Part shown: in pieces, positions 1,440 through 61,775 of the stretch
Layout: every line of letters begins with the position of its first letter
Position numbering within the stretch: position 1 is the stretch's first letter
Assembly: GCF_006345805.1 (NCBI RefSeq)
Contig: NC_042997.1
Coordinates: 203,484,001-203,548,000, forward strand
Length of the DNA stretch: 64,000 bases
Source: Octopus sinensis
Taxonomy: Eukaryota
Direction of reading: 5' to 3'
Position numbers and translations under genes: made by a program
Notes under the pieces: generated by a model
What the model was told of the DNA's origin: nothing
Seen by the model: only the letters and a program-made list of their open reading frames with translations
Databases searched by the model: none

Positions 1440-1756
1440 AGACTATGCATTCACAGTGACTGTAACTTCACCCATTGGGCTTCACAGGGGCAATGACCAA
1501 GACCTTTGGCATTATGTTGTGCTTGAGAAGAAGACCCATCAGGTTGAGCAAAATCACAGTCATGACAGATATCAGTGTCATGCAAACTGGCACCCATGCT
1601 GGTGGCATGTAAAAGCATCTTGGTGTCACGTAAATGGCACCCATGTCAGTGGCACATAAAAGCACCTATTATACTCACAGAGTGGTTGGCATTAGGAAGG
1701 GCATCCAGCCATAGAAAATCATGCCAAGTCAGAGGACGTTTAATGATGATGATGAA
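1440..1756 (+). mobile_element. 3' fragment of the RTE-PHD LINE family
   Basis: ORF2 end (DLWHYVVLEK), three GGTGGCA-type UTR modules, GGCATTAGGAAGGGCATCCAGC and a (GAT)n tail. Confidence 0.8.
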
Positions 1757-1799
1757 GATACACAATTTGTACAAGCAATACCAGCCAATGCCAAACCAT

Positions 1800-31730: not shown

Positions 31731-32539
31731 TTCCTCTTCCCCTCTCCTCTATCTCTTTCCTAACTCTCCACCACCACCACCACATCCAACACTTCCCTCT
31801 GTTATTCTTTCCTCTAACATCTTCTCTCAATATAACTGTTCCATGCATCATGAAGGTCCCTTGTGAGCTTTAAAGGGGACTACATCAGTGCTGGCTCCAC
31901 AAAAATGCTCTCAGTACACTCTGTAAAGTGGTTGTTGTTAGGAAGAGTATCCATGAAGACATCAGGTCAAAATTGAGACATCAACATCATCATCATCAAT
32001 ATATGTCCCCTTTCCATGCTGGCATGGGTTGGATGGGTCATCACAATTTGTGTCAGTCCTTGGCCAGACAGAGGGCCACACTTCTTTCATTTGTTATCAT
32101 TTTGGTCTGGTTTCTATGATGAGATGCCCTTTCTATCTCCATATGCTTTACAGAGTATAACTGGTGGAATTTTTTAATGACACCAGCACTAGAGGAAGAA
32201 CAAAGAAGAGAGAGAGACAGAGACAGAGACAGAGAGTGAGTGATTGATTTAGTTTTGGCAAATAAATGGCAAAGCAGATGGGAAATAAATGTTTAAACAC
32301 TTAAGTTTAAATGACAGTAAGTTATTCTTTTATTTCATTACTTTTTATTTATTTCAGTCAATGGAGTGCAGCCATGCTGGGTCACCAGCTTAAAAGCATC
32401 ACTTATTTTAGGTCTAGTACTTTGCGCTGAGTCACTAAGTTACAGGGATGTAAAAAAAACAAAACACTGTTCAGAAGCAGTGAAAGACAAACATGCAAGC
32501 ACACACAGTCACACACACACATACATATCATCACTATCA

Positions 32540-33880
32540 TTATCATCATCATTGTTTAACATCCATTTTCCAAGCTAGCATGGGTTGGACAGTTTGACCG
32601 GAATCTGGAAAGCCAGGAGGCTGCACCAGGCTCCAGTCTGATCTGGCAGTGTTTCTACAGCGAGATGCCCTTCCTAACACCAACCACTTTGTTAGTGTAG
32701 GGGGTGCTTTTTACATGCCACTGGCACAGGGGCCAGAGGAGGCTGGCAATGACCACGATTGGTTGGTGCTTTTTAATGCCACCAGCATGGAAGCCAGTCA
32801 AGGCAGCGCTGGCATCGGCCATGTTCGGATGGTGCTTTTTACATGCCACCGGTATAGGTATCAAAACTACAATTTCCAGTTGATTTTTATTTTGATGTTG
32901 ATGTTGATGTACTTGACTCAATAGGTCTCCTCAAGCACAGCAGGTTGCCCTACGATCCAAGGTACTTTTGAATGGGCTGGGGCTGGTTATGTGAAACTGG
33001 TGTAGGATACAGCCATGAACTCACATTATTTGTCGGGTCTTCACAGTCACAGCATATCTCCAGAGGTCTTGGTCTTTCGTCGTTGTCTCTGTGAGGCCCA
33101 ATGTTCAAAGGTCATGCTTGACCACCTCATCCCATGTCTTCCTGGGTCTAGATCTACCCTAAATTCCTTCAACTGTTTGGGAGTGGCACTTCTTCACACA
33201 TCTCTCCTCATCTATCCGTAGTACATGACCATACCAGCGCAGTCGTTTCTCTTGCATGCCACATCCAATGCTTCTTATGTCCAGCATTTCTCTCAGGGCA
33301 CTTACACTCTGTCGTGTATGCACACTGACATTACACATCCAGCGGATCATGCTAGCTTCATTTCTTTCAAGCCTTCGCATGTCCTCTGCAGTCACAGCCC
33401 ATGTTTCACTACCGTGAAGCATGGCAGTTTGCACACATGTGTCATACAATCTGCCTTTCACTCTTAGCGAGAGACCCTTTGTCATCAGTAGGGATAGGAG
33501 CTTCCTAAACATTGCCCAGACTATTCTTATTCTAGTGGTAACACTCTCTGAGCATCCACCCCCCCGCTACTAACTTGGTCACCTAGGTAACAGAAACTAT
33601 CAACTACTTCTAGTTTCTTCCCCAGGAGTGTAATGGAATCTGTTTTCTGAGTATCAATGGTGTCTATTGCACCTGTGCATCTGCCACACATGAAAGCTAT
33701 CTTCTCGGTTAATTTTCCTTTGATGGTGCTGCACCTCTTGTGTCCATAGCTTACACTGGGTACATATTATGGAGTTTCTACCTACACCTTTTCTGCATAT
33801 CGAGCAGCCCCACCTACTTAAGAGGGTGTGTGATGAGTTTGCCTTCCTACTTACTAGATCTTTGATCTTTGCTACATTGA
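32540..33880 (-). mobile_element. 5'-truncated RTE-PHD LINE
   Basis: CSICRKGVGRNSIICTQCKLW, LHGSETW and RLRWYGHV; three UTR modules and a (GAT)n tail. Confidence 0.92.
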
Positions 33881-42972: not shown

Positions 42973-43362
42973 CATCATCATCATCATCATCATCATTTAG
43001 CGTCCGCTTTCCATGCTAGCATGGGTTGGACGGTTCAACTGGGGTCTGTGAAGCCAGAAGGCTGCATCAGGCCCAGTCTGATCTGGCAGTGTTTCTACGG
43101 CTGGATGCCCTTCCTAATGCCAACCACTCCGTGAGTGTAGTGGGTGCTTTTTACGTGCCACCTGCACAGGTGCCAGACGGAGCTGGCAAACGGCCACGGA
43201 TGGATGGTGCTTTTTACGTGCCACCGGCATGGGGCCAGGCGATGCTGGCAACGGCCACGAACGGATGGTGCCTTTTACGTGCCACCGGCACGAGGCCAGT
43301 CAGGGCGGCACTGGCAACGGCCACGAACAAATGGTGTCTTTTTACGTGCCACTGGCACGGGG
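42973..43362 (-). mobile_element. Young RTE-PHD 3' fragment with four UTR modules
   Basis: (CAT)n, conserved 3' end and four TTTTACGTGCCAC units. Confidence 0.88.
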
Positions 43363-43809
43363 GCCTGAAAACTTTATCCCAAAAACCTGAAAGTGTAATC
43401 TGTGTTGTGTCTGCATTGAAAAATAGTCGTTCATCTGCTACTCATTGAGAAGTGAAAGAAACTGAAATACGATGATTACTTAATGCACTTTATATATATA
43501 CTTTATGTACAATTTTATAAACTTAATACACAGCACTCATAAAATAAATATTCACTCTTATTTTTCCATTTTCTCCATAAACAAGAAAAAAATCACCATA
43601 CATATGATACAACGTCTAGTTAAATTGCATATATCTACCATGTAAATAAGAGTGAATATTTCATGGAATTGCACTTACATGCATGCATTAAGTGACAGGT
43701 GATATAAAAAACTTAGTTCAATTTTTTAAAAATATATACTTTTCACTCTCCACTCACCACTGCCACCTCCACCACAACCACCATCTCTTCCATCACCACT
43801 ACCACCACG

Positions 43810-44394: not shown

Positions 44395-45695
44395 GGGTGA
44401 GAGTTAACCAAATTACAGTGAAGAATTTGGAGTACAGGTAGGCATTCATCAAGGCTCAGTCCTCAGTGCCCTCCTTTTCACCATTATCCTCCAGGCCATA
44501 ACAGGGGAATTCAAGACTGGCAGCTCCTGGGAATCTTGCCCTCATAACAGATTCTATATCAGAGGTAGAAAAGAAATTCCAGGTTTGGAAGCAAACCTTG
44601 AATTCAAAGGAGGGCCTTAAGATTAACTAAACAAAGACTAAGGTCTTAGTAAGCAAGAAAACCCAACTTCCTTCAGGCAATTGGCCCTGCTTGATTTGTA
44701 GGAAAGGTGTAGGAAGGAACTCCATGTAGTACACTGTACCCAGTGTAAGCTATGGACACACAAGAGGTGCAATGGAATAATAGAAAGGTTAACAGAGTAG
44801 TGTTCATATGTGAAAGATGCACAGGATCCATAAAAACTATAGATACTCAGGAAATTGATTTTCTCAAATGCCTTGAAGGCTCTTTAAAGGTAGCAGATAA
44901 TTTCTGCTACCTAGAGGAGCAAATTAGTAGAGGCAGAGGGGGTATGAAAAGAGGATGTATGGCAATCAAAGGTCTCTCCTTCCAAGTGAAGGGAAGATTG
45001 TATGATGCATGTGTATGAATAGCAATTTTGCATGCTAGTGAGACATAAGTTCTGAATGCAAAGGATATGCAAAGGCTAGAGAGGAATGAGGCTGGATGTG
45101 TAATGTAGGTGTACATGTGCAACAAAGTGCTAGTGTGCAGAGAGAAAAGTTAATCATAAAAGGAATGAGATGCAGAGTGCAAGAAAGAACACTGCGCTGG
45201 TTTTGGTCATATGATGCATATGGATGTAGATAGTTGCATATAGAAGTGCCAATCACTCAAAGTAGATAGAACTCATGAAAGACATGGGATGAGGTACTGA
45301 AGGACAACCTCAGGATACTGAACCTTACACAGGAGATGACAGAAGACCAAGATATCTGGCACCTTGCTGTACTCAAGAAGACCTATCCTCCATAGAAGTG
45401 TTAATGTTGCTCCCCCTGATGAAGAGGATTGACCTGCAAGAGACCTACACCAGTGCCACATGAACAGTGCTCATGCCAGCACCACATGAAAGCGCTCATG
45501 CCTGTACCACATATAAGTACCCAGTACACTGTAAAGTAGTTGGCATTAGGAAGGGCATCCAGCCATAGAAACCAAGCCAAATCAGCCTGGAATCTGGTGC
45601 AGCTCTCCTCCTTGCCAGCCATGGTCAAAGCATCCAACTCATGCCAGCATGAAAAACAGACATTAAAGGATGATGATGATGATGATGATGATGAT
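44395..45695 (+). mobile_element. Older RTE-PHD LINE copy
   Basis: QVGIHQGSVLSALLF, WPCLICRKGVGRNS, CTQCKLWTHKRC, FICERCTG and FCYL; 3' end and (GAT)n tail. Confidence 0.88.
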
Positions 45696-51630: not shown

Positions 51631-51851
51631 ATCAATGTATGTATACATATATATGTCTGTCTTTGTGTATATATGTATGCAAACAAATGCATGTAAATAT
51701 TTATCTCCCATACTTGCCACCTTGACTGAAGAGATGAAGAGGCTGAATATATTTGTATATAGATATGTATGTATAGTCATATCATCATCAGATGATGATG
51801 AAGATGAGGCAACATGTGTGTGAGTTTGCGTGTGTGTGTGTGTGTGTATCA

Positions 51852-54250
51852 CCATCATCGTCATCATCATCATCATTTAACATCTGCTCTCCATTCTGGC
51901 ATAAGTTAGATGGCTTGACTGGAGCTGACGAGCCAGAGAGCTGCACCAGACTCCAGTCTGATTTGGCATGGTTTCTACAGCTGAATGCCCTTCCTAATGC
52001 CAATCACTCCAAAAGTGCAATGGGTGCTTTTACATGACTCTGGCAATGATTCACAACTATGATTCACAGGTGGGTGCCATTTAAATAGCACCAGCAGCAA
52101 TCCCAACGATTCATGGGTGCCAATTGCATGGCACTAGCAATGCCTACAACCAACAACCATGATTCCCGAGGTGTCACTTACATGGCACTAGTATTGACCA
52201 CAATGATTCACGGGTACCATTACATGATACCCTCAGCAACCATGACTATGATGCATGGGTGTCATTTACATGGAGCTGGCAGTGAACAACCACAACTACA
52301 ATTCATAGGTGCCATTTACGTGACACCAGTAACAACCATGACACACAGGTGCCATGTCCCACTTACATGGTACCATCAATGATCACAACTACAATGCACA
52401 GGTGTCACATGCATAGCACCAGTAATGAGCGGCCATGACTACAATTCACAGGTGCCATTTACATGGCACCGGCAATGAGCATGATGCATGGGTGCCATTT
52501 ACATGACACTGGCATGGTTACAACTATGATTTCATTTGGCCTGATGATTCTTCTCCCACACAGCATATCACCAGAGTTCTCAGTCATTTGTCATCACCTC
52601 CATAAGGCCCAAAGTTTGAAGATCATGCTGCACCACCTCATTCCATGTCTTCCTAGGTCTAACTCTACCACAGGTTCCGTCCACAATTAGAGATTGGCAC
52701 TTCTTTACACAGCTGTCTTCATCCATATGCGTCACATGACCATACCAATGCAGTTGTATCTCCACCACACCACATCTGATGCCTTGGATACCCAACTTTC
52801 CACTCAAGATGCTTACATTCTGTCATATATGCAGACTGACATTGCACATCCAGCAAAGCATACTAGCTTCATTTCTTTCAACCCAACACATATCCTTGGG
52901 AATCACAGCCCATGTTTCACTGCTATGTAGCATAGCTGTTCACACATAGGCATCACACAGTCTGCCTTTCACTCTGAGGAGAGCCCTTTGTTGCCAACAG
53001 AGGTAGGAGCATTCTGAACTTTACCCATCCTATTCTTATTCTTGCAGCTACACTCTCAGAGCAACCACCTCCACTACTAACTTGGTCACCTAGATAGCAG
53101 AAGCTATCAACTATCTCTAGCTTACCAGCCTGGCATTTGATGTAGTCTATTTTCTGTACGTTTGTGGTGTTTATCGTACCTGTGCACCTTCCATACATAA
53201 GAATTATTTTCTTTGTTAACCTTCCTCTGATATTGCTGCACCTCTTAAGTGTCCATAGCTTACACTGGGTACATTTTATGGAGTTTCTACCTATGCCTTT
53301 TCTACAGATCGTACAGGGCCATCTACCTGAGAGGATTTGCAATTTGTCTGCTTTCCTACTTGCTAAGACTTTGGTTTTTGCTAGATCAACTTTAAAGCCC
53401 TTTGCTTCTGGGCCCTCCTTCCATACCTGAAATTCCTTCTCTAGTTCTGGAAGTGATATGATAACAAGGTCATCAGCATAGAGAAACTCCCAGGGGAAGC
53501 CTATCTTAAATTCCTTTGTTATTGCCTGGAGGACTATGATGAACAGGAGGGGTCTGAGGACTGGTCCTTGGTGAACTCCTACTTGTACCATGAATTTATT
53601 GCTATACTTGTTACCAACCTTCACCTTACTGATGCATCCCTGTACATGGCTTGTACCACTCTCACCAGCCACTTGTCTATCCCTAGTTTTCACATTGTCC
53701 ACCAGATAAGGGATGAAGGGACCCAGTCAAAGGCTTTTTTCATGTCAACAAAAGCCAAGTACAAGAGTTTATCTTAGGCCAGGTACTTCTGCAGCTGCCT
53801 TACCAGGAATGTAGCATCAGTGGTGCTTCTCACTGGCACAAAACTGAACTGCATCTCATCTAGACCAACTCTCATCCTAACTAGTTGGGCTATGACCCTC
53901 TCTATTACTTTCATCACCTGATCTAACAGTTTGATACCTCTGTAATTATTTCTGTCCAAGGCATCACCTTCACCTTTGTAGCAGTTGGTAATGATGTTGC
54001 TATACTAGACATTCGGTATGACTCTCCTTCTCCCATGTATTCTCTACATTTAGTAAACTTTCCACATTGACACTTCCAAGCCTCTTTCTTTGCAGAGTCA
54101 CTAAGTGCAAGTGAACCACCATCCATGCAAACACTTTTCTGTCCAACATAACAATTTTCCTTGGCACACTATCTGGCAAGCCAAAACACTTCCAGCCTCT
54201 GGTCCTCACACTGTATGACATTGGCAAACTTCTCCATTTCTGCTTCACTC
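51852..54250 (-). mobile_element. Longest RTE-PHD LINE copy (RT, PHD-like finger, C-terminus, UTR array, tail)
   Basis: NYRGIKLL, AFDWVP, GVHQG..L.PLLF, LYADDL, Cys-rich insert, FCYLGD and LHWYGHV; frameshifted; (GAT)n tail. Confidence 0.95.
52023..52530 (-). repeat. Tandem array of 11 palindromic 20-bp cores with variable linkers in the RTE 3' UTR
   Basis: Cores start at 52023, 52073, 52116, 52170, 52213, 52258, 52308, 52348, 52401, 52451 and 52491. Best unit is GGTGCCATTTACATGGCACC. Confidence 0.9.
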
Positions 54251-54256
54251 CTAACT

Positions 54257-54290
<34 letters not shown>

Positions 54291-55064: not shown

Positions 55065-55770
55065 AGCTGTGTGAAGTATGCGCATGGATGAGGACAGTTG
55101 TGTGAAGAAGTGTCACATCCCTGCAGTGAAGGGAACCCGTGGAAGAGGTAGACCCACGAAGACATGGGATGAGGTGCTGAAGCATGACCTTTGAACATTG
55201 GGCCTCACAGAGGCAATGACAAGTGACCAAGCCCTTTGGAGATATACTGTGCTTGAGAAGACCCAGCAAGCCAAGTGAGATCATAGCTGTGGCTGATGTC
55301 TGTGTTGTATAACTGGCCCGTTTAAAAGTACCCTTCAATCGTTAGGCAATATGCTGTGCATGAGAAGACCTGTTGAGCCAAGTAAAATCGTAATCATGGC
55401 TGATGCCAATGTTGCCTGACCAGCACCTGTGCCGGTGGCATGTAAAAATCATCATTCAAGCGTGATCAATGCCAGTGCCACCTGACTGGCTCCCATGCCA
55501 GTGGCACATAAAAAGCACTATTTGAGCATGGTCAATGCCAGTGCTGCATGACTGGCCCCCATGCTGGTGGCACATAAAAAGCACCCACTACACTCTCGGA
55601 GTGGTTGGTGTTAGGAAGGGCATCCAGCTGTAGAAACCTTGCCAGATCAGACTGGAGCCTGGTTCAGCCTTCTGGCTTGCCAGACCTCAGTCAAACTGTC
55701 CAACCCATGCCAGCATGGGAATCAGACATTAAACAATGATTATTATGATGATGATAATGATGATGATGAA
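55065..55770 (+). mobile_element. RTE-PHD 3' part with three UTR modules
   Basis: GRGRPTKTWDEVLKHDL, UTR modules, 3' end and tail. Confidence 0.88.
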
Positions 55771-61136: not shown

Positions 61137-61775
61137 ATCGACTGGCCTCCGTGCTGAGGGCACGTAACAAACACCATCCATCTGGCACCTGTGTCGGAGA
61201 CACATAAAAACATCATCCGAAGACCGGCAAGACTAGTCAGGCCATAACCCGTGGCCCCTACCTGGGACGTTGTCAGTTCACCTGTGCATACCTTCCTTCC
61301 TTCTTGTGACACTTGTGAAGACCTGTTGAGGCAAGTGAAAATCAAATCAAATCAAATCAAAATAGATGAACATCAATGGAATTTGTATCTTTGTGGTACC
61401 AGTGCCAGTGGCACACAAGAAAACCATCCGAACGTGGCCGTAGCCAGTACCGCATCGACTGGCCTCCGTGCTGTGGGCACGTAAGAAACACCATCCGATC
61501 GTGGCCGTTCGTCAGCCTCGTCTGGCACCTGTGTCGGTGGCACATAAAAACACCATCCAAGCGTGGCCGTTCGCCAGCCTCGTCTGGCACCTGTGTCGGT
61601 GGCACATAAAATCACCCACTACACTCTCGGAGTGGTTGGCGTTAGGAAGGGCATCCAGCTGTAGAAACACTGCCAGATCTGACTGGCCTGGTGCAGCCTT
61701 CGGGCTCCCCAGACCCCAGTTGAACCGTCCAACCCATGCTAGCATGGAAAGCGGACGTTAAATGATGATGATGAT
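61137..61775 (+). mobile_element. Young RTE-PHD 3' UTR with four modules and a displaced upstream module pair
   Basis: Near-identical to 28335-28730 with one extra ~61-bp unit; 61137-61220 repeats module sequence upstream. Confidence 0.88.

What the first reader, a model, noticed from the sequence alone, without database searches (positions are those of the whole stretch)
52023..52530. Repeat-linker array of 11 palindromic GNRA hairpins directly downstream of a reverse transcriptase
Seen: 11 units with periods of 40-54 bp lie between the ORF2 stop and the conserved 3' tail. In element-sense RNA the best core is GGUGCCAU-GUAA-AUGGCACC, an 8-bp stem capped by a GNRA tetraloop. Linkers vary from about 20 to 34 nt. 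The same core variant occurs once near 1622 (GGTGTCACGTAAATGGCACC). The layout looks CRISPR-like, but the linkers share CAACTATGATTCAC-like words, so they are diverged paralogues rather than acquired spacers. Inference: an expanded structured-RNA array that could act as multivalent RT/RNP binding sites or as processing sites.
Basis: partly seen in the sequence, partly recalled or inferred. Interest (0 to 1): 0.75.

Follow-up and report, generated by a model that had tools for sequence, protein, structure and literature searches.

The report
Hairpin minisatellite in dead retrotransposon tail
Eleven worn copies of a short palindrome sit in the tail of a broken jumping gene, as in dozens of its sister copies; the row likely grew by copying slips in an old branch of the family and is probably passive repeat DNA rather than a working RNA scaffold.

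Summary
The array is real: 11 units, periods 40-54 bp, minus strand, starting at the stop codon of an RT. But only 2 of 11 units keep a paired stem with a GNRA loop, and the RT is a 5'-truncated, frameshifted remnant of an RTE-like LINE in a 2.7-Gb animal genome (likely octopus). The array is a subfamily trait: 64 arrays, 338 units sampled. It likely arose by tandem duplication of the first ~46 nt of the 3' UTR. Stems and linkers diverge alike at non-CpG sites (12.9% vs 14.5%, p=0.17), compensatory changes equal chance (29 vs 31), and three unit variants shared by many copies damage the stem. Younger sister subfamilies lack the hairpin and amplify a neighbouring predicted pseudoknot instead. 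That knot and the conserved tail domain sit in the 5' UTR of distant relatives, so the tail is likely a captured 5'+3' (bipartite) RTE piece. Loop changes that perfect or invert the palindrome are in excess, suggesting DNA template switching. The scan already noted the knot-type arrays on other DNA; this hairpin-type branch was not listed. Verdict: modest variant of a known kind.

The parts
52532..54258 (-). Remnant of the single ORF of an RTE-like LINE (RT, PHD-like finger, C-terminus); 5'-truncated, internally deleted, frameshifted; stop codon at 52534-52532
   Evidence: Pfam RVT_1 E 1e-4, below cut-off; three frames against the long ORF of relative L061, 58-78% identity; translation with stops; L061 ORF carries Exo_endo_phos, RVT_1 and a sub-cut-off PHD match
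52023..52534 (-). Tandem array of 11 units (about 26-nt linker + 20-nt quasi-palindromic core); the first linker begins at the stop codon
   Evidence: first core lies 25-26 nt after the stop motif in 23 of 27 arrays that keep the RT end
52451..52470 (-). Unit 2 core, the only perfect 8-bp stem with GUAA loop; equals the family majority core
52023..52047 (-). Unit 11: likely hybrid of a hairpin unit and the terminal pseudoknot core; the knot's first stem is lost in this copy
   Evidence: alignment A2; no fold predicted; other family copies keep a separate terminal knot
51965..52017 (-). Conserved domain that lies in the 5' UTR, upstream of the ORF, in distant relatives
   Evidence: stem 85-89/105-109 of A2 91% paired
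51876..51914 (-). RTE-type 3' end, which in distant relatives directly follows or overlaps the ORF end
51848..51875 (-). (GAT)n terminal microsatellite; element lies between CA repeats, no target-site duplication resolved
1530..1760 (+). Short copy of a sister subfamily with hairpin core (1622-1641), then knot, then tail domain
42975..43365 (-). Younger sister-subfamily tail with tandem knot-type units (also 55430-55754 +, 61400-61775 +, 32536-32850 -)

Best explanation
The array is a minisatellite in the 3' UTR of an old, likely extinct subfamily of an RTE-like LINE, likely amplified by copying slips and likely not needed for function. Steps. (1, shown) The family layout is ORF - variable repeats - knot-type core - conserved domain - RTE 3' end - (GAT)n. 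(2, inferred from position in relatives) Knot, domain and 3' end are a captured 5'+3' bipartite RTE piece. (3, inferred) In one branch a palindromic hairpin sits between stop codon and knot; the ~46 nt from the stop codon to just past the hairpin were duplicated through a GTG microhomology. (4, inferred from shared unit variants) Further duplications and deletions took place in active source elements, most likely by RT slipping and re-annealing between units, and were spread by retrotransposition. (5, shown for L030, L003) Some arrays grew again as DNA after insertion. (6, inferred) The palindrome is partly kept up by template-switch mutation, not by selection on RNA shape. At most one hairpin next to the knot may matter; the extra copies are passengers, and this locus is a dead copy.
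For: Family-wide: 47 matches among 40 scored of 522 candidates; 64 arrays of 2-11 units, 338 units, 52 of 64 with the tail and 27 of 64 with the RT end in view. Non-CpG divergence in 116 standard 46-nt units: linker 286/1972, stem 225/1740, loop 51/464 (p=0.17; 10.5% vs 9.8%, p=0.51 without lineage-variant sites); CpG kept at 62 of 464 sites. Compensatory double changes 29 observed, 30.9 expected; stem intact in 122 of 338, with GNRA in 90 of 338. Transitions that keep a G-U pair are no commoner than those that break it (171 vs 179 of 1324; 32 vs 38 of 993). Variants linked to linker markers across arrays, hence inherited from source elements: G4>A with C17 kept in 26 of 33 (28 arrays), G16>A with C5 kept in 51 of 63 (linked form in 23 arrays), a one-base insertion in the 3' arm (10 arrays). 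30 of 44 RT-end-bearing copies have no hairpin core, and their median terminal branch is 0.016 versus 0.105 for the 11 multi-hairpin copies. No array in the 31 3' ends of metagenome relatives displayed and no knot-core or convincing hairpin-core match in 79 loci. Domain upstream of the ORF in 10 of 13 relatives displayed and in L190. Loop G9>T 19/338 vs 21/1352 at other G sites (p=7e-5), A12>C 10/338 vs 7/1352 (p=5e-4), full loop inversion in 3 of 338; these changes destroy the GNRA. Near-identical dimers sharing CpG decay in L030 and L003.
Against: Most differences between dead copies are neutral decay, so the rate and covariation tests cannot see selection on the source elements; only the shared variants address that, and two of five are benign (GCAA loop keeps GNRA in 7 arrays; C5>T gives G-U in the last unit of 38 arrays). 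Looser unit sets gave linkers more divergent than stems (19.4% vs 13.7%; 22.1% vs 14.2%), which I ascribe to short linkers out of register. All subfamilies keep some hairpin just upstream of the knot (36 loop sequences inside one GCCAG/CTGGC stem), hinting at selection on one hairpin. The context-matched control for the loop excess was not significant (4/120 and 1/120, p=0.47 and 0.30; 0 of 31 in terminal knots) and units are not independent. The young, hairpin-free copies were picked as best protein hits, which biases the age contrast. RT slippage was not separated from DNA recombination for most duplications. RTE-clade assignment rests on architecture, not on a tree with named references.
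Confidence: 0.72

Rival explanations
1. One hairpin is functional as a folding guard: it ties up the TGGCAC stretch that would otherwise pair with the 5' strand of the pseudoknot's first stem; the array is a harmless multiplication of that guard. Compatible with the best explanation for the extra copies.
For: Hairpin kept upstream of the knot in both branches with different 5' arms and loops. Predicted probability of the knot's first stem is higher with the upstream arm than without in 29 of 60 knot-type modules, lower in 5 (mean 0.19 vs 0.09) and in 4 of 7 hairpin-type modules. Knot stem 1 shows two double changes between this family and L111/L127.
Against: Effect small; ViennaRNA does not model the knot; rows are related; L105 fell from 0.88 to 0.0 with 4 more upstream bases; covariation on alignment A2 did not beat the shuffles (26-467 of 500); in this window copy the knot is lost.
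Confidence: 0.3
2. One reading: a selected multivalent array of GNRA hairpins that binds several RT/RNP units or marks processing sites.
For: Family majority core is a perfect 8-bp stem with GUAA loop; the array rode in active elements; one shared loop variant keeps GNRA; sense strand folds slightly better than antisense.
Against: Stem-damaging shared variants, no covariation, copy number from 1 to 11, absence in younger subfamilies and in distant relatives; no Rfam family near threshold.
Confidence: 0.1
3. Purely genomic minisatellite: each array expanded as DNA after insertion, independently at each locus.
For: L030 and L003 show post-insertion dimer duplication; palindromes favour slippage (established knowledge).
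Against: The same marked units recur in the same order in separate loci (e.g. window, L008, L013, L019; linkage p 4e-7 to 4e-15); within-array and between-array unit distances are equal (median 13 and 13 of 46).
Confidence: 0.07
4. CRISPR-like or self-cleaving ribozyme array.
For: Repeat-linker layout; RTE 5' UTRs can carry ribozymes (PMC8501958, passages).
Against: Linkers descend from one sequence; animal LINE context; best Rfam hits 10-21 bits against gathering scores of 36-70.
Confidence: 0.02

Closest known systems
Bipartite RTE elements and SINE bodies built from RTE 5' UTR + 3' end (Kojima 2018, PMC5786205, parts 1-3 of 5 read; hagfish SINEs, PMC7245038, passages)
   Same: A piece from the middle of an RTE 5' UTR joined to an RTE 3' end forms the tail; L195 shows the same join in another animal.
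   Different: Here the bipartite piece ends a coding LINE rather than a SINE, and repeats have grown in front of it. My tail motif was not found in the text of Kojima's supplement (alignments may be pictures), so identity with his conserved domain is not shown.
Short tandem arrays inside retrotransposons that seed satellites (Lathyrus, PMC7004042, abstract and search listing only)
   Same: Element-borne tandem arrays of variable length, dispersed by transposition, sometimes expanding further as DNA.
   Different: Those are plant LTR elements; this is an animal non-LTR element with a palindromic unit and arrays of at most 11-12 units in my sample.
Tandem monomers in mammalian L1 5' UTRs (PMC5381506, passages)
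   Same: Subfamily-specific tandem duplications in a LINE UTR, with turnover between families.
   Different: L1 monomers are 70-650 bp, 5', and carry promoter signals; no such role shown here.
3' stem-loops recognised by stringent LINE RTs (review PMC3747384, passages)
   Same: Hairpins in a LINE 3' region.
   Different: Those are single, near the terminus and show compensatory changes; this array is 110-620 nt from the end, multi-copy, without covariation, and absent from relatives.
Template-switch mutations that perfect quasi-palindromes and invert hairpin loops (PMC10710096, passages)
   Same: Excess of palindrome-perfecting loop changes and 3 loop inversions.
   Different: Described for primate and rodent loci with longer tracts; here a 20-nt repeat unit, inferred from counts only.
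Octopus RTE LINEs (Petrosino 2022, PMC9115989, passages)
   Same: RTE-type single-ORF LINE in what is likely an octopus genome.
   Different: RTE-2_OV has a 3' UTR mostly of microsatellite and a C2H2 finger; no hairpin array is mentioned in the passages seen; 4 of its supplementary files were not searched.

Membership tests
RTE-clade non-LTR retrotransposon | Single ORF with AP endonuclease and RT | tested here: met
   In relative L061; window copy is 58-78% identical in three pieces but lacks the endonuclease
RTE-clade non-LTR retrotransposon | 3' end in a short microsatellite | tested here: met
   (GAT)n in window and 20 of 20 fetched relatives shown
RTE-clade non-LTR retrotransposon | RT groups with named RTE references in a tree | not tested
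   No named references held; homologues mostly unnamed; PDB shows only L1, R2 and group II intron RTs
RTE-clade non-LTR retrotransposon | Target-site duplication | tested here: inconclusive
   Both ends abut CA repeats
Bipartite RTE-derived tail | Segment homologous to an RTE 5' UTR | tested here: met
   Domain upstream of the ORF in 10 of 13 relatives displayed and L190; gapless knot alignment with L111, L127
Bipartite RTE-derived tail | Followed by an RTE 3' terminus | tested here: met
   Same terminal motif follows the ORF directly in relatives such as L113, L116, L117, L133
Conserved structured RNA (GNRA hairpin array) | Compensatory changes above chance | tested here: not met
   29 vs 30.9 expected; test weak for dead copies
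Conserved structured RNA (GNRA hairpin array) | Stems more conserved than linkers | tested here: not met
   12.9% vs 14.5%, p=0.17; looser sets favoured stems
Conserved structured RNA (GNRA hairpin array) | Variants fixed in source elements keep pairing | tested here: not met
   3 of 5 shared variants damage the stem
Conserved structured RNA (GNRA hairpin array) | RT binding or processing at the hairpins | not testable with these tools
   Needs biochemistry or raw small-RNA reads; only contigs were served
CRISPR array | Unrelated acquired spacers between conserved repeats | tested here: not met
   Linkers 85-90% like one majority sequence at non-CpG sites
Known Rfam RNA or ribozyme | Score at gathering threshold | tested here: not met
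   5 matches at E<=10, all far below; none for relatives' 5' UTRs at E<=0.5 other than repeat-driven hits
Element-borne minisatellite | Head-to-tail units with copy-number variation among element copies | tested here: met
   2-11 units in 65 arrays, modal period 46 in 116 of 275 intervals (one of the 65 later dropped)

The most novel reading that the evidence does not exclude
A LINE moved a pseudoknot-bearing translation or stability module from the 5' UTR of another element to its own 3' UTR and evolved an upstream guard hairpin so that the knot folds; the module is an RT pause and re-priming site that repeatedly multiplies itself, with one branch amplifying the hairpin and others the knot, and unit number tunes element activity.
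Probability: 0.12. Interest if true: 0.6.

Novelty: new variant of a known kind. Interest (0 to 1): 0.25.

Why it matters
As it stands, it is a clear case of how an abundant LINE spawns minisatellites in its own tail, and a caution: a tidy palindrome with a GNRA loop can be made and kept by duplication and DNA template switching without RNA function. The hundreds of dead units are a natural sample for measuring template-switch mutation. If the guard-hairpin and knot reading held, it would show a 5' UTR module working from the 3' end of a LINE, which is testable with a reporter.

Tried and rejected
Tandem Repeats Finder does not report the array: units are too diverged. Rfam: nothing near threshold for array or relatives. 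Knot-core and tail patterns in viral contigs: 0 and 0. Tail pattern in prokaryote genomes: 9 stretches, all look like animal repeat DNA in bins. Sequencing runs: no RNA holder listed; the one guessed-RNA run laid (X1) gave only family-level pieces, no evidence either way on expression; all runs were contigs, so 40-50-nt products could not be examined. A cross-species rate test at this locus failed: only 0-2 differences in the covering contigs. Pseudoknot covariation on alignment A2 does not exceed shuffles, because 5 of the 13 rows carry other structures at that place. Literature: 'cephalopod, LINE, pseudoknot, retrotransposon' gave 0 papers; 'octopus, RTE, LINE, retrotransposon, UTR' gave 4, two looked into; motif strings in full text gave 5 papers, not opened. 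I did not find the array described in these searches; Repbase and subscription papers were not searchable, and supplements of PMC9115989 (files 5-8) were not seen. Earlier-findings look-ups by place (relatives) and by sequence returned nothing. One false array (L080, reversed knot units) was dropped before the counts; still holds its 2 rows; one duplicate unit pair (L092) remained.

Full report
Observation. The stretch holds 11 related cores on the minus strand with periods of 40-54 bp, far beyond chance (longest cluster 9 versus at most 1 in 20 shuffles) and present in independent contigs. The first linker starts at the stop codon (52534-52532) of an RT reading frame. But only units 1 and 2 combine intact pairs 2-8 with a GNRA loop; unit 10 has a UUAA loop, units 5 and 9 open to six-base loops, units 6 and 11 hardly fold. 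The whole array folds only a little better than shuffles, on both strands (z -2.85 and -2.28).

The host element. The window lies in a 2.72-Gb animal genome; octopus is my inference from size and recalled repeat types. The RT piece has 43,565 first-look candidates in that genome. A long-ORF relative (L061) carries endonuclease, RT and a PHD-like finger in one frame, and its homologues have the same layout. The window copy begins near 54258, lacks the endonuclease, misses about 80 codons internally and has frameshifts and stops. It ends in (GAT)n. I call it RTE-like from this architecture; no tree with named references was possible.

The array is a subfamily trait. A DNA search gave 47 matches among 40 scored of 522 candidates; with further searches I collected 65 arrays of 2-11 units, modal period 46, 64 after dropping one false array, 338 units, 52 with the tail and 27 with the RT end in view. 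In 23 of those 27 the first core lies 25-26 nt after the stop motif, the length of a linker, and the linker starts with the same letters as the stop region. So the unit is the first ~46 nt of the 3' UTR, likely duplicated through a GTG microhomology (inference). Marked units recur across loci, often in the same order, with strong linkage between linker markers and core variants: the array grew in active source elements. L030 and L003 also show near-identical dimers that share CpG decay, so some growth came later as DNA.

Is the hairpin selected? In 116 standard units, non-CpG divergence from the majority is 14.5% in linkers, 12.9% in stems, 11.0% in loops (p=0.17), and 87% of linker CpGs have decayed. 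Looser sets that include short linkers showed linkers more divergent (19-22% vs 14%), which I ascribe to misregister. Compensatory double changes match independence (29 vs 30.9); transitions that keep G-U pairs are no commoner than those that break pairs. These tests mostly measure neutral decay of dead copies. The more telling test is variants inherited from source elements: of five found, three damage the stem without compensation (G4>A, G16>A, a 3'-arm insertion) and two are benign (GCAA loop, C5>T). A tree of 44 RT 3' segments puts the multi-hairpin copies in an old group (median terminal branch 0.105, n=11) apart from hairpin-free copies (0.016, n=30) (the latter were chosen as best protein hits, so the contrast is biased). 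The younger subfamilies carry 1-12 units of a different core with other linkers, and duplications up to several hundred bases.

Where the tail comes from. In 79 metagenome loci of the same protein clade, the 31 3' ends displayed run from the ORF almost directly into the terminal motif and microsatellite, with no array. The conserved domain of the tail instead lies upstream of the ORF in 10 of 13 relatives displayed and in L190. Just upstream of that domain, L111 and L127 carry a motif that aligns without gaps to the younger subfamilies' core and fits an H-type pseudoknot, with two of four first-stem pairs changed on both sides (the alignment as a whole does not beat shuffles). The same knot variant occurs 45 times in the own genome, shortly before a start codon of another LINE type in copies such as L273. 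So the tail is likely a captured RTE 5' UTR piece plus 3' end, the bipartite kind that Kojima describes for SINEs (PMC5786205, parts 1-3 read; PMC7245038, passages). The hairpin core shares its first 13 letters, nearly, with the knot core and its 3' arm with the stretch that precedes the knot, so it likely began as a partial duplicate of the knot (inference). In this window copy the last hairpin and the knot have fused and the knot is lost.

Why a perfect palindrome? The core differs from its own reverse complement only at loop positions 9 and 12. Changes that remove that mismatch are in excess: G9>T 19/338 vs 21/1352 at other G sites, A12>C 10/338 vs 7/1352, and 3 full loop inversions. They destroy the GNRA loop, and match template-switch outcomes described in PMC10710096 (passages). 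Caveats: units are not independent, and the context-matched control was not significant.

Mechanism and rivals. Most likely (0.72): passive element-borne minisatellite. A single hairpin next to the knot may help the knot fold (0.3; predicted gain in 29 of 60 modules, loss in 5, small and context-sensitive). Purely post-insertion expansion (0.07) and CRISPR or ribozyme readings (0.02) are largely excluded.

Novelty. Tandem arrays inside retrotransposons (PMC7004042, abstract; PMC5381506, passages) and bipartite RTE tails are known. I found no description of this array in the searches. Earlier agents of this scan noted the knot-type arrays and the 5' UTR origin on other DNA; I had reached that reading before looking (note). 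The hairpin-type branch was not returned by sequence or relatives look-ups. Score: new variant of a known kind, interest 0.25.

Noticed in passing
window 53240-53330 (-); L061 ORF residues 799-842: PHD-like zinc finger right after the RT domain, shared with many homologues; noted before by the scan.
   Followed up: partly
L199-L218, L268-L277 (e.g. L273:482-560): A different LINE type in the same genome carries the pseudoknot variant shortly upstream of its start codon (45 exact matches); the protein resembles R4/Dong-type elements by recall only.
   Followed up: partly
L068, L072, L073, L075 3' UTRs: Young subfamilies have 135-400-nt duplications that include the ORF end; several junctions fall a few bases after a knot core, suggesting a jump hotspot.
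   Followed up: no
L190-L198: Animal RTE/SINE tails inside contigs binned as bacteria or archaea: likely contamination or chimeric assembly; L195 is a clean bipartite tail.
   Followed up: partly
L113, L116, L137, L190 and L114, L117, L195, upstream of the conserved domain: Two other structured motifs occupy the place of the knot in relatives' 5' UTRs; they recall twister-like and HDV-like ribozymes (from memory), but Rfam gave no match for the six of these seven loci' kin scanned (L190 and L195 not scanned).
   Followed up: partly
window, whole: 20 copies of the tail domain in 64 kb, most without any RT sequence.
   Followed up: partly
window 52219 and 52358: Contigs of X14 and X15 have one extra base in unit 7, restoring a four-base loop; X14 has another letter in unit 4: allele or assembly error.
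   Followed up: no
L085, L092: Array fragments lie inverted next to other family copies.
   Followed up: no
window 33048-33877 (-), 44432-45257 (+): Further decayed RT pieces of the same family.
   Followed up: no
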